Of a stretch of DNA of 64,000 bases, positions 6,881 through 53,260 are shown one piece after another; the stretch's first letter is position 1; each line of letters begins with the position of its first letter. The notes under the pieces were generated by a model. That model did no database searches and was not told the DNA's origin. It worked only from the letters and a program-made list of their open reading frames with translations. The DNA is taken from NCBI GenBank assembly GCA_951406725.2, contig OX597818.1, positions 76,570,001-76,634,000 of the forward strand, read 5' to 3'. The position numbers and the translations under genes were made by a program. The DNA comes from Octopus vulgaris. Its lineage: Eukaryota.

Positions 6881-8640
6881 CTGCTTTCTGATATCTGATT
6901 TGATAGGACTATGGGACATTTCATTTGCTGTAATAATCTCACCACCTTAATAATAAATGTGGTTTCTGATTTTAGCACAAGATACGCAAATTTGAAGGGA
7001 GTTGGTTTACTTAATACCATCAACCCCAGTTTGTGATTGGTACTCTGTTTTTATTGATTTTGGAAGGCTAAAAGTCAAAGATAACCATATAAAGATTACC
7101 TTTCATCCCTAAAAATTAGCTTGCAGAAACCATTCCCAAACGAAACCATTGCATCCTGAAGTAGTCATGATCAGTGTAGTCAGACCCACGTTCTGTGCAG
7201 CACAGGATGAATTTATTAAGGGCTTTTACTAATGTTCTTCATATCTAATGTAAATTTTCCTTTTTTTTATGACTGTTCTTTTACTTCTCTTCTTGTCTCC
7301 CCCTCTCTCTGTCTTAGCCTCTCTTTCCCTCTCCCTCTCTTCTGTCTTACCCTCTCTTTCCCCTCTCCCTTTCTTCACCACTGTATCTCCCTTGATGGTA
7401 TTGTGTTGCATGAAATTCAGACTTTAACAGCAATAAATAAGTTTGGTTTTATTTATTTATTTTTCCTTATTTCTTTGAGTTTTATTAACAGTGTATGAAT
7501 AGAACAAAACAGTTGAAATTTCCTGCTTATTATGAATGCTTTACTGTTAATGTTTATGGAGAGACTATTCTGAAGTATAAGCATGTGTGATGATAACTCC
7601 AGATTGATGCTGGAGCAGGAGGGAGTGGTGAAATATTTATGATCCAACATTAATCCCCTAATTCCCCCTCCCTTCCATGTTTACACATTAATATCGAACT
7701 CTCTGGTGCCACAGTGTCAACATTCTACAGAACAAGAAACATATTTCTATTTAGATGAGGAAATGGGAAGCTTTTATTTAGAAATTTTGCTATCAACCAT
7801 ATTCTTCAGTTTTAGTGGCCATTTGATTCATCATTTACAGGAAGTGTGTATATGTATGTATATTCTTGTGTTTGGGTGTGGTCTATAATAATAACCTTTC
7901 TGTTATAGGCACAGGGCCTGGAATATGTTTTGGTGATGGGAGGGTACTAGTCAATTACATCAGCTCCAGTGTTTCACTGATACTTAATTTATCGACCCCC
8001 AAATGGATGAAAGGCAAAGTCAACTTTGGTGGAATTTGAACTCAGTATATAGCAGTAGACAAAATACCACTAAAACAGCTGATATAAATATTGGTCAGTG
8101 GATCTCTTCAGTCATACTTTACATTGTATTCAAAGAGGGGAAGAGGGAATAAAAGAGAGATACAGACAGGACGGGTGTGCATACTAGGCTCGATAGCAGA
8201 CAATGAGTAAAGGAATGGCATGCACAAACATACATACACAAACATACATACATACATACATACATTCATACATAAATACATGCCCTCTTGCATACATGTA
8301 ATTGAAAAACTGGTTAGAATTGGCAACAGGTAGAGCAACTGTCTAAAAATCCTGCCTCAAATAAATACCTATCTAGCTCTTGCTAGCATAGAAAAACAAA
8401 CATTCAATGAACAGATAACAGATACACCCGCATACACATATGTATATAGGTTACAGGTGTGGCTGTGTGGTAAGAAGCTTGCCTCCCAACCATATGGTTC
8501 TGTGTTCAATACCACTGTGTTGCACCTTGGGCAAGTGTCTTCTACTATAAACTTGGGCCAACCATAGCCTTGTGAGTGGATTTGGTAGACAGAAACTGAA
8601 AAAAGCTCATCGTTTATTTATATATATATATATATATATA

Positions 8641-9306
8641 TAAAAGTAGATAACTGGTACAACAAGGCACCAATATTTACTGGAAAATAGCAATCGTAAT
8701 AAATACGACGCTATTGTATCACTTCACTGTGTATATACTAGCAAAGACGCGTGTGTGCAACAAACATGAAAAAAATTTGTCTTACCTCTAGGAAGAACAT
8801 CTGATAAATGGACAACCTAGAATCAGATAATGCAGGACCGGTTTCTGACTCTTCAAATATGTTTGACAACGTAAATTTGATTAGTCTTCATCAGCTGCAT
8901 TTACCTAGACAAAATTTCAAATGTTGCCACATCAATACCAGTATACTTGTCTGAACGGCAAAACGTTAACAGAACGAAAACAGTGAAGAAGTTTCAATGA
9001 AATTAATAATGCAATACAAATGTATTACTTTCCAGTAAAGGATAGCCCCATAAGGGTAAAATTATACGTATAAAAGTAGATAAATGGTACAATAAGGCAC
9101 CAATATTTACTAGAAAATAGCAATCATAATAAATACGACGCTATTGTATAGCTTCACTACGTATATACAAGCAAAGACGTGTGTGTGCAACAAACATGAA
9201 AAAAATTTGTCTTACCTCTAGGAAGAACATCTGATAAATGGACAACCTAGAATTGGATAATGCAGGACCGGTTTCTTTTACTGGAAAGTAATACATTCGT
9301 GTTGCA

Positions 9307-9310
<4 letters not shown>
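8641..9310 (-). mobile_element. Hammerhead-bearing Penelope-pLTR/retrozyme-like element: 1.5-mer of a 430-bp unit with short terminal inversion, within (TA)n
   Basis: 8641-8846 is directly repeated at 9071-9276; 9277-9310 is an inverted copy of 9006-9039; (TA)n on both flanks; hammerhead motif inside. Confidence 0.75.
8829..8901 (-). ncRNA. Type I hammerhead ribozyme motif
   Basis: Minus strand AATGCAG-CTGATGA-A-GACT..TCAAAT..ATTTGA..AGTC-A-GAAAC-CG-GTC-CTGCATT: 7-bp stem I, intact core, palindromic stem III ACCGGT, GUC site; A.A mismatch at the base of stem II. Confidence 0.8.
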
Positions 9311-9337
<27 letters not shown>

Positions 9338-9570
9338 GAGAGAGAGAAAGAGCAAGGGTGTGAGAGGTATTGGTACCGAGAAGACCCAAAGAGTGGCAGG
9401 TAACACCAAGTAAGTGCTATGGACACACCATAGTTAAACTTTTAGTTCAATAGTGGTACGAGTGAGGAGTCTAATGTGGGTCTTGTATTAGCATGCATAT
9501 ATATATATATATATATATATGTGCATGCTGTGAGTAGTTTTCAGGACATTTTTAAGGAAAAAGATATATA

Positions 9571-9618
9571 GTCTTACAGCTGTTTCTGGGATATTATGGA
9601 TATCTCTTCATCAGAGAC
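9571..9618 (-). ncRNA. Type I hammerhead ribozyme motif (left arm)
   Basis: GTCT-CTGATGA-AGAGATATCCATAATATCCCA-GAAAC-AGCT-GTA-AGAC; stem III palindrome ACAGCTGT; stem II partly eroded. Confidence 0.75.
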
Positions 9619-10171
9619 GATGTGAGATGGTTAAATAGAGGTAAGTATTTGAGTTTGAAATTAGGAATTATTATGGAAAAGGAGGAGATAGCAAATATAG
9701 AGGTGAAAGGAGAATGACAGTAGAAATAAAATATATAAAGATTGTAGTTGCAGTTCCATTATTCGAAGAAAGTGGTAAAAAAGTTTCCTGTACATGATAT
9801 GTAAGTTCCAATAGTAGTTTGTTTAGTCATTTCAAAGTATGGAGCCATGGATTCTGTGTTACTCATTCGAAAGGATCTTCACACCATAAGACCCTTTCGA
9901 ATGAGCAACCCAGAATCCACAGCTCCATACTTTGAAACGACCAAACATGAACTACTACTGGTACTAACATACCATGTACGGGAAACTTTTTTATCACTTC
10001 TGTACACCACTTTCTTCAAATAATGGAACTGAAACTACAATATCTCTATATATTTTATATTTCATTTCTACTTTCATTCTTATTTCCCTCTATATTCCCT
10101 ATCTCCTCCTTTTCCATAATAATTCCTTATTTCGAACTCAAATATTTACCTCTATTTAACCATCTCACATT

Positions 10172-10219
10172 GTCTTTGATGAAGCGATATCCATAATATT
10201 CCAGAAACAGCTGTAAGAC
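10172..10219 (+). ncRNA. Degenerate hammerhead motif (right arm)
   Basis: GTCT-TTGATGA-...-GAAAC-AGCT-GTA-AGAC; first core C mutated to T. Confidence 0.6.
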
Positions 10220-11350
10220 TGTATCTATATCTTTTTCCTTATAAATGTCCTGTAAACTATTCACAGCTTTGGCTTTATCTCATTTTGTCTAATATATGTG
10301 TGCGTGTGTGTGTAAAATGTTATATAGTAACGGAACAGTTGTGGTAGTGGGTGGAGAGGCAGGCCAATATGCTGATATATAATGATACAGTTAGGAAGGG
10401 TGTGTGTGTGTGTCTGCATCTGTGCACGCATGCACACACACACACACACACACAATAACAGAAATGGCAATGACAGAGAGGAGGAAACAGAAGAGAGCAT
10501 AGGATTGGTATAGATGTTTAAATATGTTTTTCTAGACATTTTGACATTTTCTATAAACAGCAGTCATATCAATATCTTCTGGATTTTGTTTGTGTATATA
10601 TATATACCTGTGTGTATGAGTGTGTCTCTGTATTTGTGTGCATCCATATATATGCATGTTTGCATATTTGTGTGTGTGCACGTGCCTAAGTATGTATGGA
10701 TGTTTGCATATATGTATTTGTGCACATGTATGTGTATGGGTAAGCATGTGCAGGTATGACCATATGGTTGAGAAGTTGGTCTTGCAACCATGTAGCTTCA
10801 GGTTCAGCCCTACTGCATGGCGCTTTAGTCTCCTACTATAGCCCCAGGCATTTCAATGCCTTGTGAATGGATTTGGTTGATGCAAACTGAAAGAAGCCCA
10901 TCACATGTATGTAGACACACTTACACACACTGAAATCCATGTGATTCATTTGTGCATGGAAAAGTGGACATTAAAATGATGATGATGTTGTGTGTGTGTG
11001 TGTATAAAAGCACCTAACACACTGTAAAGTGGATGACATTAGGAAGGGCATCCAGCTGTAGAAACCATACCAAATCAGTCTGGTGTAGCTCCCTATCTTG
11101 TCAGCTCTGGTCACACTGTCCAACCCATGGACAACAGACATTAAATGATGATGATATATATTTATGAAGTTTGCTTCTCAACCATAAGATATTGCCATGG
11201 CATGGCACGCTGGGCAAGTGCATTCTGTTATAGTTTCAGATCAATCAAAACTGAAAGAAGCCCATCATATACATGTGCATGTGTATCTGTGACCTGTGCG
11301 TGGCCATGAGTAAATATGATCTTACTTGGAAACAGCTTAGGATTGTTGAT

Positions 11351-33838: not shown

Positions 33839-35044
33839 CACAGACATGACAGAAGTAAATAATCAGAAGTTATTATCGTTAAAATTTATTTAAATCTGAA
33901 ATCATACATTTAAATTATTTATTATTATAATGTGAATATCTAATATTTAGTAGACATGCCCTTTGCATTTTTCAATGTGAGAATCCTTTAAGGCATGCTG
34001 CTGATCAGATGATGAATATTCCCTTGGGGAATTTCTTGCCAAGTTTCATGCAGTAATCTCAAAAGATCTGGCTTGTTCTTTTTATGAAGTGTCCTGTCCA
34101 TTATGCCCTAGAGGTGTTTAATAGGGTTCATATCTGGTGATTGGCTTGGCCATGGAATCTTTTTAATGCCATTTTTTTTTCCAACCAATCTTGAGTCTTA
34201 TTAACCATGTGACAGTATATCCCCATCTTCCATAAATAAAGAGTCTTTTCCAATTATTTCACCACTGGAGAAGATTGGAAGGAGTCCTTTCTGCAATATG
34301 GGCACATATTTATCTGAGTTTATGTTTCCTTCACACTCCACCAGCTCTGATTGATCATTGCTCCAAATTGCTCCCCAGACCATTACATCAATCTTTTCAT
34401 GTCAAATGTTTGATCACAGAGTCTCCAGACCCGCACTTGACCACTGTCAGAAAATACAGTAAACCTAGATTCATCAGAGAATATTATAGTGTCCCAAAAT
34501 TCTAGCGGCCACTCCATCATCGCACTGGTCCAATCTTTTCTCTGCTTGATATTAGCTAGTTGAAGGAGGGGCTTCCTTCCTGTTGCTCTGTCATAGTAAC
34601 CATGTTTGCGGAGATACCTGACAGCTGTTCTGAGACTGACATCAACTTTTCCTGCTATGTCAGAGGCCTTGCAATGAGGATTACCCTCCACACTTCACTT
34701 AACAAAGAGAGGGGTCTTGTCAGAGGGCCCTGGTCTACATGGACAAGGTGATGTGTACTCCTCCTCTCTGGTGGATTGCACAATCACCCTATTAACTGTA
34801 GAAAGTGGGATCCCCAGTTTTTTTGCGATTTTACCTTAAGTCTACCTTCAGATTGATCCACAATATGGCCTCTTTGAAATTTGGACAGTTCCAAGGCTTC
34901 TTTTGTATGTGGCATGATTAAACAGCCACATATAGAACCTGAAACTTTAAAATGTCTGTTAATAAAAAATATAAACTTTTTCAAGTTAAAATGAACATAA
35001 AACAATGTTTGATGGGGTGTCTATTTAACTCTGTCATGTTTGTG
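33839..35044 (-). mobile_element. Full-length decayed Tc1-like DNA transposon (~1.2 kb)
   Basis: TIRs CACAGACATGACAG..TAAATA / TATTTAACTCTGTCATGTTTGTG, TA on both sides; transposase remnant inside. Confidence 0.9.
33940..34915 (-). pseudogene. Tc1-family DDE transposase pseudogene (frameshifts, stops)
   Basis: MPHTKEALELSKFQRGHIV...RKPLL...WDTIIFSDESRF...MVWGAI...FMEDG...SPDMNPIKHL...KGMSTKY*; the catalytic E position reads K. Confidence 0.88.
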
Positions 35045-40199: not shown

Positions 40200-40573
40200 C
40201 TGTTCTCTTCCTCTCTCTCTCATTCTTCACTCTCTCTCTCCCCCTCACCATTCTTCAGGGTCTCCTCGCAGCCATCCCCCTCACCATTCTTCAGGGTCTC
40301 CTCGCAGCCATCCCCCTTCTTCTCTCCCTTCCTCTTGCTCCTCCTCCCCCCTTCCCGTCGTCCACCCGCGACGATACGTCCGCCCTGACTGTCTTTTTGG
40401 CCTGGCCTTCAAGGTAACTGGATGACATTCTTCCTGCTCTCCTGTCGTTCACAAAAAATTCTGTGTTTGCAATACTTTTTTCGTTCGGCGTCAACAGCCC
40501 TTCTTATCTTGTTTTTCCCTGTCCTGTCTTTTACTGTTATGTCTTTTTACTGTTTATATTTTTTTTACTGTTT
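40200..40573 (+). mobile_element. Unclassified CpG-retaining repeat 3' end with 36-bp tandem duplication
   Basis: Truncates a SINE; CCCCTCACCATTCTTCAGGGTCTCCTCGCAGCCATC x2 (40241-40312); T-rich tail runs into the microsatellite. Confidence 0.45.
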
Positions 40574-41812
<1,239 letters not shown>

Positions 41813-42999
41813 AAAAATATACAAACTGGGACAAGAACGCAAAACATTTAGAAGATGATACAAAAAACACGGACGGGACATTCGAAGCCTTCAATCTTCA
41901 GTCAAGAACCGGATCATCCTCGCAATTTCGGCTGATTAATCTTGAGCCGCTCCGATCCGGCCAGCCCCAAGGAATATATATGTATATGTGTATATGTATA
42001 TATATGTATATATATGTATATATATGTATATGTATATATATGTATATGTATATATGTATATGTATATATATGTATGTATATATATATATAGGTATGTATG
42101 TATGTATATGTATGTATGTGTGTATGTATGTATGTGTATGTATGTATGCATATTTGTATGTATGTATGTATAAATGTATGTATGTATGTATGTATATATA
42201 TATATATGTATGTATGTATATATGATGATGATGATTGTGTCATTCTCATCTGCTACATTACTTACAATATAAATTAGTTCACTATTTAAAATTTACCAGA
42301 GTTCTTTAAAAACAATGATAAAAATATTTTTTAATGATGGTCACAGATTTGAAGGGAAAGAAGAAACTCAGTTGTATTGACCCTATCCAGTACTTTCATT
42401 GGCCTCTTCAAGGCAGTTAGTAGTAGTTCTTTATGTCAACTAACTTTTTTTCAACTACAACTTCAATTTTTAGCTTTTCAATGGCACTGATTGTTCACCA
42501 ATACATCAAGCTCTTCCTGGAAAAAGGGAGACATAAAATTGTCAGATTTAGCTCACACACTGTATGTGTGTGAACCAAACAATTTAGAATGACTCTTGTC
42601 ATTTATTAATACTGTTGTTGTTCTTGTTGCTAATCAAGGAATAATAAAGATTGTCAACAAGAGTGTCCAGCTTTAAAATTTTGTCTCAAATATGTCCTCT
42701 GTCTGACCCATGCTAGTATGGAAGCACAGATGTCAAACATGAATAGTTCTACTTCAAGCTGATAAAAGCATGATTTAACTATGTGAAGTTGGTCTTTAGT
42801 CTTTGCCAAGTTGCTTTGTTTAGCTTTTATCCTATAGCTGTAGTTTTAACATCACTACATGTAGCTATTTTGTTAATAATGCAAAACTAGATATCTCTAA
42901 CTCCTCACCTCCATAAATTTTCTTGTCATTTCAACACATATATACACACACACATATAAACTTACATTTTTTATACCTCTAGATATATATACATATATG

Positions 43000-48999: not shown

Positions 49000-51849
49000 T
49001 ACTAAACTTCATTTAATATTCAAATTCATTCACATTATTATACAATAAGAAGCATATAAGATACAGAAACATCCAAATTTTTTCCTCTAGTTATTCAACA
49101 GATAAACTGCAAGATTTCAGTCTTTGAAATGCCACATAAGCACTCACTTAACCCATTGTGAATCACTGTGAAAGTAAACTGTACCTGTTGGTATGAGTAC
49201 TAGGTCTTACATAATAAGGGGACAAGGGAGTAATAGTCTATCAAATAGGGACATCTGGGTGAAGATATTATATTTGATGGCTGGTGTGCTGTTCACTAAC
49301 TGACAGGGTGGACAGGCGGGGCAGACATCACTTGTTCTCATTTGTCTGATAAAGGTCACACGAGTGACTTTAATGTCATAACTCTGGTAAACTACTTGAG
49401 TGTGTGGGCAAAACTACACAATGACTTCAATGGTAAAATTTCCTGGCTAAAGAGGAAAAAGTTCCCCGACTGAACTATAACATTCTTGTGTTCATGACAA
49501 AGAGGAACTACCTAGTTGGAAGTAATACCAACTGTGGTCAAATGTAGGAAGAGATGAGCACTTACAGGTTCTCATGACCAAGACATGCCATGTGATTTCA
49601 TAATAATGGAGAACAAGCAAAGAGTCATATATATATATAATTAGATGAAATTCTCATTAAATAAATCATTAAACTCTCATTAAATGGTAAGTGTATCATC
49701 AAACAACCCTGGAGTGATGAAAGATAAAATTGACAGTGGCAACGTTTCCATTCCTGCCATTCACTGTTAGCACAGTTTTTTCTACATGAACTGTTACATT
49801 TATTACCTGTACTAGCATGACAGCCTGTTTGTGATCAGTCTTTCTCTTTTAAATATGGGTAAGTCACATTAAATATAGAAATATTAATGGGAGAATGTCC
49901 AGAGACACCTGCTACATGAAACCCATTTAATAAAGTAGTCACTAACATATTTAATATAGTAAACCAAGACATTTTAATTTATTCACTATATCAGGTTAGC
50001 ACTCTACAAATTGTTGATCATACAACAAGCAACCCTGGATATTTACCCAGGTTATTTTTGTAAAGAAATAATAATTGCAGTAACAGATACATTATTCTTC
50101 ACTGAGGGAGTTCTAATAAGACAAAAACATGCCTGGATATTTTCTGACAACTATGGACATGTTTCAGGCTGTTTATTTAATCAAGAGAGAAGGTAGTGCT
50201 CACAATTCTTCATAGAGGCCCTAAAACTGGTGGGAGGGAAGGAGGATGGTGTCCTCAAACCAGAGACCTTGCCTGAATGATTCGCAACAAGGTGGACTTT
50301 GCTGAAGGTACCCAAGGACCAGAGTCAGGGTGAAGCTAGGTGACAGGTTAAGTGTACCTCTCAAAGTTCAGTATACCACCTAGAAATAAAGTCCACCATC
50401 CAAACGTTCAATCTACCATATAGAGAGGTTTAGAACCTTAGATTAAATCTACCATCCAAGGATTAAATCTACCATCCAAATGTTCAGATATATCTACCGT
50501 TAGACCTCTTCAACATAGTGTAGTCAAAGATTTTACCTGGAGAAAAAAAGTTACAAAACAATGACCAGTATAATTTATTTGATTAAAAAACAAAAATGAG
50601 CTAAGGAAAACAACAATGACCTGAATTTGGATAAGAGTGAAGGACTTACTGTCCTTTACCTGCAGACAAAGGTCAGACATTTTTTCCTCTTGAATATGTT
50701 AGCTTTCATAGATTCCTAATCCCTTAAAGTTATCCCCCATTTTTTTATCATAGTTGCTTACTGTTACCACTAGGTTTTAGTTTTCTTTCCATAACTAAGA
50801 GGAAAATTTCAAGTAAGATTTTTTTGCTTATGGCTTTTAGTACATCATTGGCTAGATTTGTACCATTAGGCCATTTTTATTAGCTCATTTTTAATAGACA
50901 TTTTGTTACCTTATTGGTAACTTGTTGGTTTATGTACACCCACTCATAGACAAGTTATAACCTTAATGATTTATATACATCCACTTATAATCATTTTACA
51001 ACATTGTTAGTTTATTTGCACTCAGTCATATACATTCAGTAAATTTGTTGGTTTATATACACCCACTCATAAGCATTCTATAAAGCACTCGATCATAGAC
51101 ATTTCTTCACCACACTGGTTTATACACACCTACTCAAAGACATTTTATAACCTTATTGGTTTATACACATCCAGCCATAGACATTGCAGCTATCTCAGCA
51201 TTATAGCCTCTACCAGGAACTAATTACTCACAGACACACTATCATTATGTTCTTGTATGAAACAGTGTTAGATGGAGGGATAGATGTTATTGACCAATCA
51301 GAATGGCAGTGAATTAGCAGAATCATTTGAACATCAGATAGAATGCCTGTTTGCGTTTGGTTATGTACCTTTATGAGTTCAGATCCTACTGAAATCAGTT
51401 ATGCCTTTCATCCTTTGGTAGTTGACTATATAAAGTATCAGTTAAATACTGGGGGTTAAGTGTAATCCATTGTACCCTCCTCCTGAATATGGTGCCTTAT
51501 GCCAATTTTTAAAATTGATATTGGGCTTTGAGTAGTTGTATCAGAATCTCTGTACTCTAATGTCCTATTTAGCTGGAGTTTAGTCTCATTTCCTCTTAAC
51601 TACACAAGTGTTTTACCCAAGAACACAGCACAAAGCACTTCATTTCATGCTCCTTAAGTCTACTCAGCTGAAAATTAGTAGCAGCAACTGCTGGAGGTTA
51701 ATCCTGTAAAGGACTGGTGTCTTGTTAAAGGGTGGGTAATATTGTTCTTTCCATCACTTAAGACACCATGTAAACTGGGACAAGCTCTGACCCTGTGAAG
51801 TTGTACATTCATGGCAGGCCTAAGACCAGTCTGGATAGAGATTGTCAGT

Positions 51850-53260
51850 CACTACACATTTTGTTGGTCACCAGCATGAATACAATATTTCAACTAAAGA
51901 ATAAGTATAAAATTACATGGATGCACCCTGGTTCTAAGAAATGGCATCTTATAGATTACATGCTCACCAAGAAACGAGACACTAGGGACTTTGCTGTTGT
52001 AAAAGTGATGCGTGGTGCAAAGTGCTGGACTGACCACAGGCTGTTGCGTGCCAAGGTGAATTTTGTTGTCAAGCCTAAGGTTAGAGCAAATAATAAGTTA
52101 CCTAAACGGATTAATGTCGATTAACTTAAGATTCCGTCTGTACGCAATGAGTTTGTGAGTGAGATAAATAATTTGTCCTGTGATGGCAGTTGGAAGTCAT
52201 TCAAAGAAAGAGTATACAAGGTTTGTAGTAACATTCTTGGCTTTGCTGTAAAAAAATACCAAGATTGGTTTGACAATAATAATGAAAAAGTTAGTCTTAT
52301 CTTAGAGGAGAAGCAAAAGGCATTTAACATGTTGCAAAATGTTGACATGTCAGCGAACAGGACATTGGCTACCTAATTCAAGGTAGTAAAAGCAACAGTG
52401 TTGAGGAAGCTGAGGATGATGCATGAAAATTTGGTGGAGTGATAGATGCAATGAAATCCAAGAAGCTTCAAATGCTAACAATTCCAAACTTTTTTACTCT
52501 CTCTTGAAAAAAGTTTATGGACCAGTTTCATCAAAGGTTGCACCACTTCAGAACAAGGATGGCACAGAATTATTAACAAATCCTAAGGATATTGTTGAGA
52601 GATGGAAAGAACATTTTGATGAGTTGCTCAATAGACTCACTGAAGTTGACCTCTCTTTCCTTGATAATATACCTGAAAGACCAATAAAACATGTTATAGC
52701 AGAAATTCCAAACCTGACTGAAATAAAAGCAGCGATCAGGAAATTGAACAATGGAAAGGCCCCTGGTATGAATGAACTAGGTGCAGAGATATATAAATAT
52801 GGTGGTGATCATTTCTGTACATGTTGAAGGGTGTGATTCTGAGGGTTTGGCAAAGTGAAGAGGTTCTTCCGGATTGGCATGATGCAACTATGGAGATACT
52901 TTATAAATCTAAAGCTGGAAAGGTTGTCTGTGATAATTATCATGGCATATGTCTGTTAGCTGTTGCTGGAAAGGCCCTTTGTTGGGTAATGCTGGACAGA
53001 TTGCTTCTGCACATTGCTGATGATGTTCTACCAGAATCACAATGTGGGTTTAGATGGAGGTCTGAAACGACACATTAAGAGAGTGCATATAGTGGAAACT
53101 GTTTCTCCTGCCAGCAAGCAAAGTTGTGCAGTATGTAATAAAATGTGTAAAAGTTTGGCTGGGCTTAAAAGTCATATAAGGGCATCACATGGCATCAATA
53201 ATGAATCATTTCAGTAAGTCTTTTTGGCAATGGCTTTCCTCATGTAACGAGGGTGCAGCT
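51850..53260 (+). mobile_element. RTE (BovB-like) LINE remnant: APE C-terminus, linker, RT start, then C-terminal zinc fingers
   Basis: TWMHPGSKKWHLIDY...CWTDHRLL; RWKEHFDELLN; NGKAPG; NYHGICLL...LPESQCGFR; then CAVCNKMCKSLAGLKSHIRASH; frameshifted. Confidence 0.9.

What the first reader, a model, noticed from the sequence alone, without database searches (positions are those of the whole stretch)
8641..9310. Retrozyme-like 1.5-mer defining a 430-nt cut-to-cut monomer
Seen: a 206-bp direct repeat at 430-bp period. The upstream (minus-strand) copy starts almost exactly at GAAACCGGTC, so predicted GUC sites at 8836 and 9266 bracket one unit, though the upstream copy holds only the 3' half of the ribozyme. 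A 34-bp inverted copy of internal sequence caps the 5' end. Established: animal non-LTR retrozymes are short tandem hammerhead repeats that yield circular RNAs. Inference: reverse transcription went more than once round a ~430-nt circular template, or across tandem pLTRs, then switched template.
Basis: partly seen in the sequence, partly recalled or inferred. Interest (0 to 1): 0.78.

Follow-up and report, generated by a model that had tools for sequence, protein, structure and literature searches.

The report
Penelope-type ribozyme repeat in TA microsatellite
This is an old copy of a common non-coding jumping element that carries a self-cleaving RNA motif and was pasted into a TA microsatellite in the pattern typical of Penelope-like retrotransposons; it is an ordinary member of a known class, and whether it ever made circular RNA is still open.

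Summary
In detail: 206 bp repeated at a 430-bp period (94% identical), one complete type I hammerhead on the minus strand, an upstream half-ribozyme, and a 34-37-nt inverted cap, all between two (TA)n tracts. Public DNA runs show a high-copy family (1,572 and 1,635 contigs laid) in which the 430-nt junction is shared by many copies, so this is not a local duplication. Partial tandem, head-to-head inverted 5' piece and TA target are the published signature of Penelope-like elements (PLEs), and animal non-LTR retrozymes are now described as their non-autonomous derivatives. Both ends face (TA)n, so the cap is better read as a second cDNA primed from the opposite target end than as a template switch. 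Depth falls from a fixed 3' end and 5' breaks are scattered, which argues against permuted starts and against the cut site setting the 5' end. Circular versus uncleaved tandem template cannot be told from DNA. The ribozyme scores below Rfam's cut-off and has an extra A before GAAA; cleavage, expression and the autonomous partner are untested. Verdict: new member of a known kind, modest interest.

The parts
8451..8612 (+). Older SINE-like interspersed repeat whose TA-rich tail is the insertion target
   Evidence: 13 other matches in the window at 69-96% identity, most followed by TA/TG microsatellite; the label SINE is recalled, not tested
8619..8642 (.). Left (TA)n target tract, next to the 3' end of the main (minus-strand) copy (start site A, about 8641)
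8641..8846 (-). Downstream copy of the 206-bp repeat: 3' half of the hammerhead plus 195 nt after the cut site; small hairpin at 8653-8674 close to the end
8825..8905 (-). Complete type I hammerhead motif: 7-bp helix I, CUGAUGA (8894-8888), helix II of 4+6 bp flanked by an extra A on each side (8887, 8846), palindromic ACCGGU helix III, predicted cut between 8836 and 8835
   Evidence: Rfam HH9 24.2 bits, E 0.0023, under cut-off; pairs listed; shuffle control
8836..9265 (-). Cut-to-cut unit, 430 nt, about 33% GC, no ORF of 100 aa or more
   Evidence: junction at 9057-9079 covered by many contigs in both DNA runs
9006..9042 (-). Internal segment copied in the cap; 9006 is the inferred second start site B, 57-65 nt downstream of site A on a tandem or circular RNA
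   Evidence: a second locus with an opposite-strand joint at 9038 and a 34-nt short side (table 5)
9071..9276 (-). Upstream, 5'-truncated copy holding only GAAA, helix III, the GUC site (cut between 9266 and 9265) and the helix I 3' arm
   Evidence: cofolds with the downstream catalytic strand into a hammerhead with a 6-bp helix III
9274..9310 (+). Inverted cap (RNA sense on the plus strand), joined head-to-head to the main copy through a 3-nt overlap and ending on the right (TA)n tract
   Evidence: summed depth only 25 and 0 in the last bin against 1e4-1e5 elsewhere, so this exact junction is not family-wide
9308..9333 (.). Right (TA)n target tract

Best explanation
An old, non-autonomous insertion made in trans by a Penelope-like element (PLE) protein; in current terms a non-LTR retrozyme monomer with a partial upstream unit. 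The template RNA held the 430-nt unit more than once in sequence. The GIY-YIG endonuclease cut both strands of a (TA)n tract. The left end primed cDNA at start site A (8641); synthesis ran 636 nt through one intact hammerhead and through the 3' half of the next, and stopped at the foot of helix II (9276). The right end primed a second cDNA at start site B (9006 in unit coordinates), which stopped after 34-37 nt. The two cDNAs were joined at a 3-nt overlap. Shown: the anatomy, the family's copy abundance, the family-wide junction, inversions at other loci, common origin of the two copies. Inferred from PLE literature: enzyme, two-ended priming, start sites. Not shown: transcription, cleavage, template topology. 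For topology I put an uncleaved tandem transcript at about 55%, a ligated 430-nt circle at about 35%, other routes at about 10%.
For: Partial tandem with a 5'-truncated upstream copy, adjacent inverted 5'-truncated copy, tail and (TA)n target are listed as PLE hallmarks (PMC8557442; PMC3846280; PMC8969392). A purified PLE protein cuts AT-rich DNA and extends both strands, starts at two neighbouring internal sites and uses mainly uncleaved RNA (PMC11167929). Family: 1,572 and 1,635 contigs in two DNA runs, summed depth 1e4-1e5 against medians of 43 and 54 for the 8 longest pieces listed per run. Junction shared: a variant at 9068 sits in 29 and 32 contigs up to 50 and 41 nt from their ends; a joint 9066 to 8648 with 11 letters between gives the same 430 period. 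3 of the 15 joints shown (32 in all) change strand: 8812/9177, 8817/9247, 8917/9038. Depth falls with distance from site A: 97k, 57k, 22k and 85k, 55k, 25k. At 13 of 13 family-variable sites checked outside the 12 differences both copies carry the same base; for 9 of the 12 differences the table shows one copy with the family base (5 private to the upstream copy, 4 to the downstream). A second head-to-head element with hammerhead-like cores lies 200 bp away.
Against: No autonomous partner or RT/GIY-YIG ORF was found; no genome is held and no ORF of 100 aa or more overlaps the element. The A-to-B offset is 57-65 nt, longer than the 30-40 bp tail in print. Target-site duplication cannot be read inside (TA)n. 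Summed contig depth is not a copy number by the tool's own warning, bins are not independent, and the spacer carries several near-fixed differences from the family that could lower its depth. Short contigs cannot show whole loci; only 15 of 32 joints and 40 of 161 variant sites were displayed. The ribozyme is under Rfam's cut-off and departs from the PLE consensus by an extra A before GAAA.
Confidence: 0.82

Rival explanations
1. Rolling-circle copy: the self-cleaved 430-nt monomer was ligated to a circle and the reverse transcriptase went about 1.5 times round it. This is a version of the best explanation that differs only in template topology.
For: Both copies come from one haplotype (13 of 13 shared sites). 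The cDNA crosses both GUC sites without a scar. Coral, mussel (350-390 nt) and axolotl retrozymes make abundant circles, and this route is proposed in print (PMC7229834; PMC4209133). The circular monomer's predicted fold keeps helices I and II.
Against: A homogeneous tandem transcript predicts the same DNA. Uncleaved RNA was the main substrate in vitro. Only 1 of 9 predicted frog retrozyme dimers cleaved (bioRxiv 2026.07.22.740005). Closing helix III in the monomer costs energy (-8.7 against -13.4 kcal/mol) and the core has an extra A. Starts are not permuted, although fixed starts are also possible on a circle.
Confidence: 0.3
2. The cap is a terminal template switch or repair fill-in: the single cDNA stalled at helix II and copied 34 nt from its own internal sequence in reverse before joining the target.
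For: 3-nt overlap at the junction; the cap's source lies inside the same insert; this junction is locus-specific.
Against: The cap ends in RNA sense exactly on the opposite (TA)n flank, as a primed 3' end would. A second locus has an opposite-strand joint at 9038 with a 34-nt short side, which would end at about 9005 (which side is the short one is my inference). At 9018 and 9040 loose ends of other contigs carry the cap's base (table 7).
Confidence: 0.15
3. Local DNA rearrangement: a single monomer insertion later duplicated 206 bp and inverted 37 bp by slippage or repair next to unstable (TA)n tracts.
For: Microsatellite flanks; the two copies share one haplotype.
Against: The junction between the duplicated part and the spacer is present in many other copies (depth 19k and 14k over 9057-9079), and other loci show the same class of inversion.
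Confidence: 0.04

Closest known systems
Animal non-LTR retrozymes (Cervera and de la Pena 2020, PMC7229834; Li, Clavereau and Pollet 2026, bioRxiv 10.64898/2026.07.22.740005)
   Same: Non-coding unit of 150-450 bp, low GC, type I hammerhead, many dispersed copies, tandem junction, presumed PLE helper; mussel units are 350-390 bp.
   Different: This locus has one complete ribozyme only, so it fails the 2026 definition of an active retrozyme; cleavage and circles untested; extra A on both sides of helix II; extended helix II.
Endonuclease-positive Penelope-like elements, pLTR structure (Craig et al. 2021, PMC8557442; Adineta Penelope, PMC3846280)
   Same: Partial tandem, head-to-head inverted 5'-truncated piece, hammerhead near the 3' end, (TA)n target, unreadable TSD.
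   Different: No RT/GIY-YIG ORF; offset between the two 3' ends is 57-65 nt against a 30-40 bp tail; clade of the helper unknown. Four short motifs of this element and two of the neighbour gave no homologous hit in the PLE sequences of that paper's supplement.
Poseidon element PAc of Anolis (Frangieh et al. 2024, PMC11167929)
   Same: Two neighbouring internal start sites downstream of the ribozyme, AT-rich target, both strands extended, uncleaved RNA used.
   Different: PAc is autonomous and its start sites lie inside the ORF; here the unit is non-coding. No sequence relationship was tested.
Twin priming of LINE-1 (recalled, no call)
   Same: Two target ends prime two cDNAs that are joined at a short overlap, giving a 5' inversion.
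   Different: In LINE-1 the two segments cover different parts of the RNA; here the inverted segment is also present in the main copy, so it came from a second unit or a second RNA.

Membership tests
Non-LTR retrozyme | Type I hammerhead architecture in the unit | tested here: met
   Helices and core laid out; Rfam HH9 E 0.0023 but 24.2 bits, under the cut-off of 52; 0 of 100 shuffles
Non-LTR retrozyme | Short unit (150-450 bp), low GC, non-coding | tested here: met
   430 nt, 33% GC; no ORF of 100 aa or more; three minus-strand frames broken by stops
Non-LTR retrozyme | Many genomic copies | tested here: met
   1,572 and 1,635 contigs in 2 DNA runs; 20 of 24 listed runs hold part of it, 10 studies
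Non-LTR retrozyme | Tandem arrays of two or more full units in the family | tested here: inconclusive
   Unit-to-unit junction is family-wide but no listed piece is longer than 323 nt on the stretch
Non-LTR retrozyme (active, Li et al. 2026) | Two consecutive units each with a complete hammerhead at this locus | tested here: not met
   Upstream copy holds only the 3' half; definition
Non-LTR retrozyme | Self-cleavage and linear plus circular monomer RNA | not testable with these tools
   Only contigs of runs guessed to be RNA were available
Penelope-like element insertion | Partial tandem with 5'-truncated upstream copy | tested here: met
   definition
Penelope-like element insertion | Inverted 5'-truncated copy adjacent to the 5' end, head-to-head | tested here: met
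   9274-9310; 3 opposite-strand joints at other loci among 15 shown
Penelope-like element insertion | (TA)n or AT-rich target | tested here: met
   8619-8642 and 9308-9333; one locus only, flanks of other copies not seen
Penelope-like element insertion | 30-40 bp optional tail between two start sites | tested here: inconclusive
   The two 3' ends are 57-65 nt apart; the cap itself is 34-37 nt
Penelope-like element insertion | Target-site duplication | tested here: inconclusive
   Hidden by the microsatellite, as reported for other TA-targeting PLEs
Autonomous Penelope-like element | ORF with telomerase-like RT and GIY-YIG endonuclease | tested here: not met
Non-autonomous PLE derivative | Sequence shared with the pLTR of an autonomous PLE in the same genome | not testable with these tools
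   No genome held; collection scans gave chance hits only
PLE minimal hammerhead consensus (CUGANGAH, G10.1-C11.1, GAAA, palindrome) | GAAA follows C11.1 directly | tested here: not met
   Extra A at 8846 and 9276; consensus from the supplement of PMC4209133

The most novel reading that the evidence does not exclude
The family keeps a fossil record of how PLE inversions form: both target ends are primed on one RNA molecule, possibly a 430-nt circle, and the cDNA started at site B stalls 21-29 nt short of site A because the first enzyme or its RNA:DNA hybrid sits there. Two loci (this one and the 8917/9038 joint) fit. With thousands of copies the cap-length distribution would test this directly, on a question the PLE literature calls open. 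In addition, two unrelated elements in this window share a hammerhead core with an extra A on both sides of helix II, which may be a working lineage-specific core variant.
Probability: 0.2. Interest if true: 0.65.

Novelty: new member of a known kind. Interest (0 to 1): 0.3.

Why it matters
As it stands it adds one more family to a known class and links, at one locus, the retrozyme label with the PLE insertion signature (two start sites, inversion, TA target), which the 2026 preprint argued from phylogeny in vertebrates only. It would matter more if the caps proved to have a fixed stop, or if a 430-nt circle proved to be the template, since the origin of PLE tandem and inverted structures and the role of their hammerheads are both described as unresolved.

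Tried and rejected
Whole-genome search: no genome held. Exact-pattern scans: 1 metagenome locus (53% GC, match limited to the 20-nt pattern) and 59 viral loci, longest alignment to the element 26 nt in 60 of 60 loci: chance. Expression: no RNA holder listed; two runs guessed to be RNA gave 5 and 57 contigs, which may be DNA and cannot show strand, ends or circles; not counted either way. Table 6 (piled ends) was empty and says little for contigs. Loose ends before 9005 and 8655 first looked like element ends but resemble diverged homologous sequence, so they were not counted as termini. Four joints that skip the cut site (8737-8861, 8745-8855, 8753-8840, 9230-8869) have unknown letters between and may be diverged subfamilies; left uninterpreted. 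Nearness of the 5' break to the cut site: about 5% for a uniform break on 430 nt, computed after the fact; not taken as evidence. The 670-nt fold z-score of -9.5 reflects the built-in repeats; the ribozyme region alone folds no better than shuffles (z -0.5). Other Rfam matches (coronavirus UTR, microRNA families) are far under their cut-offs and follow from TA runs and long hairpins. Bacterial promoter scan is not suited to this DNA. A whole-window inverted-repeat scan was swamped by a microsatellite at 41 kb. Earlier scan notes: none by sequence or place. Literature: searches for octopus/Penelope/retrotransposon/hammerhead, cephalopod/hammerhead ribozyme/circular RNA, retrozyme/octopus and hammerhead/C11.1/G12/insertion listed no paper whose title or abstract start describes this family or this core variant; Repbase and Dfam were not available, and the supplement of PMC7229834 could not be read, nor bioRxiv supplements; either may hold related families.

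Full report
Observation. The repeat is as described: 8641-8846 and 9071-9276, 206 bp, 94.2% identical, 430 apart, with a 37-nt inverted match between 9006-9042 and 9274-9310. The longest exact direct match is 73 nt against 8-11 in 20 shuffles. Both ends abut (TA)n tracts. The left tract is the tail of an older interspersed repeat with 13 other matches in the window. The window is about 35% GC, microsatellite-rich animal-type DNA; from memory it resembles octopus DNA, but no call tested this and no conclusion depends on it.

Ribozyme. On the minus strand 8814-8912 matches Rfam HH9 at E 0.0023, 24.2 bits, under the cut-off of 52. Helix I has 7 pairs, helix II 4+6, helix III is the palindrome ACCGGU. 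A descriptor hit of this quality arose in 0 of 100 shuffled windows. The extra base after CUGAUGA fits the published PLE consensus; a second extra A before GAAA does not (supplement of PMC4209133). That A is in both copies and no change at 8846 is among the 40 of 161 variant sites and 12 of 19 indels displayed, so it is probably family-wide. Closing helix III within one ribozyme is unfavourable (-8.7 against -13.4 kcal/mol), whereas the upstream half and the downstream catalytic strand cofold into a hammerhead with a 6-bp helix III as their best structure (-26.6). So the upstream GUC could be cut in a half-dimer. In the whole 670-nt transcript, however, the cap pairs with its internal source and encloses the upstream half, so this locus is a poor candidate for a source of circles. 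Activity is untested.

Family. 20 of 24 listed runs, from 10 studies and 4 organism labels, hold part of the stretch. I laid 4 of the 24. The two DNA runs gave 1,572 and 1,635 contigs with summed depth of 1e4-1e5, against medians of 43 and 54 for the 8 longest pieces shown per run: of the order of a thousand or more copies, a rough inference since the tool warns that this is no copy number. The unit-to-unit junction is shared: depth 19k and 14k over 9057-9079, a variant at 9068 in 29 and 32 contigs, and a joint 9066 to 8648 with 11 letters between, which is again 430. The last bin of the cap has depth 25 and 0. The 430-nt unit is thus a family trait and the cap junction belongs to this locus.

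Ends. Depth falls with distance from the 3' end at 8641: 97k, 57k, 22k in one run and 85k, 55k, 25k in the other (rank correlation -0.67 and -0.63 over 18 non-independent bins; -0.40 in one of the RNA-guessed runs). That is the pattern of a fixed start with 5' truncation, not of permuted starts, though higher divergence of the spacer could contribute. Of 15 joints shown (32 in all), 3 change strand: 8812/9177, 8817/9247 (the same unit position on both sides, a fold-back, seen in both DNA runs) and 8917/9038. With a joint at 8945 they place 5' breaks at 8747-8945, not at the cut site. The 8917/9038 joint has a 34-nt short side; if that is the inverted piece it ends at about 9005, as our cap ends at 9006. 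This is one contig and my inference.

Age and origin. The copies differ at 12 sites. For 9 the table shows one copy with the family base: 5 changes private to the upstream copy, 4 to the downstream; one CpG decayed in opposite ways in the two copies (8825, 9254). At 13 of 13 other family-variable sites checked both copies agree, also where that base is the minority (8692, 8748). They were one sequence at insertion and have drifted since, about 3% each. This fits a circle and a homogeneous tandem transcript equally.

Mechanism. The main copy is RNA-sense on the minus strand with its 3' end on the left tract; the cap is RNA-sense on the plus strand with its 3' end on the right tract; they meet head-to-head at a 3-nt overlap. 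Each target end therefore looks like a primer. This is the arrangement described for PLEs: partial tandem, inverted 5'-truncated copy, optional tail, (TA)n bias hiding the TSD (PMC8557442: passages, section 15 and supplement searches; PMC3846280: passages; PMC8969392: passages). A purified PLE protein cuts AT-rich DNA, extends both strands, starts at two neighbouring internal sites and uses mainly uncleaved RNA (PMC11167929: parts 1-2 of 4). The cDNA passed 11 nt beyond the upstream cut site, so a linear cut-to-cut monomer was not the template; an uncleaved tandem RNA (about 55%) or a ligated circle (about 35%) remains. The stop at the foot of helix II is most simply a stall at structure or chance.

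Comparison. It works like a PLE-mobilised non-autonomous element and meets the structural definition of an animal non-LTR retrozyme (PMC7229834: passages, first third of results, discussion; PMC4209133: parts 1-2 of 4 and supplement passages). A 2026 preprint files such retrozymes as non-autonomous PLE sequences and reports cleavage in 1 of 9 tested (parts 1-3 of 5). This locus fails that paper's test for an active copy. No helper ORF was found, so PLE descent rests on insertion anatomy. If the host guess is right, PLEs with a TA preference are already catalogued in that group (passages and supplement rows) and hammerhead matches in a related genome (passages). One earlier scan note describes a similar TA-targeted Penelope-type unit in another genome; it was not checked and is not counted as support.

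Against my reading: one locus with visible flanks, truncated tables, no partner element, a start-site offset longer than the published tail, and no RNA evidence either way.

Verdict. Real feature, new member of a known kind, interest 0.3. The most novel reading left open is that cap lengths in this family record two primings on one RNA, possibly a circle (probability 0.2).

Noticed in passing
window 9527-10267: Head-to-head inverted pair (354 against 380 nt, 84% identity, 8-nt spacer) close to the next TA tract, with a minimal hammerhead-like core in each arm (minus about 9614, plus about 10178), each with an extra A on both sides of a degenerate helix II; no sequence similarity to the finding. 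Probably a second, unrelated PLE family.
   Followed up: partly
window 17605, minus strand: Third hammerhead-like core found by the descriptor scan (relaxed hits average 0.1 per shuffled window); no clear element structure on reading the region.
   Followed up: partly
table 7, loose ends behind 8823 and 8809: Other contigs carry different helix I and helix III sequences at the ribozyme position, one with a UA cut site and no extra A before GAAA: sister subfamilies with variant hammerheads.
   Followed up: no
window 8860: Nearly all family depth has the base that would extend the inner part of helix II by one pair; this copy has lost it.
   Followed up: no
window 9006-9013 and 8827-8834: The 8 nt before start site B are the same as 8 nt of the helix I 3' arm; chance or a repeated binding motif.
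   Followed up: no
window 34386-34694, minus strand: Fragment of a Tc1/Tc3-type transposase (Pfam PF01498, E 5e-7, just under the cut-off).
   Followed up: no
window 51774-52827: Two open frames that look like a decayed LINE endonuclease-to-RT region (recalled; no Pfam hit).
   Followed up: no
window 40400-42300: Long TA/TACA-type microsatellite with a strand inversion at about 41440.
   Followed up: no
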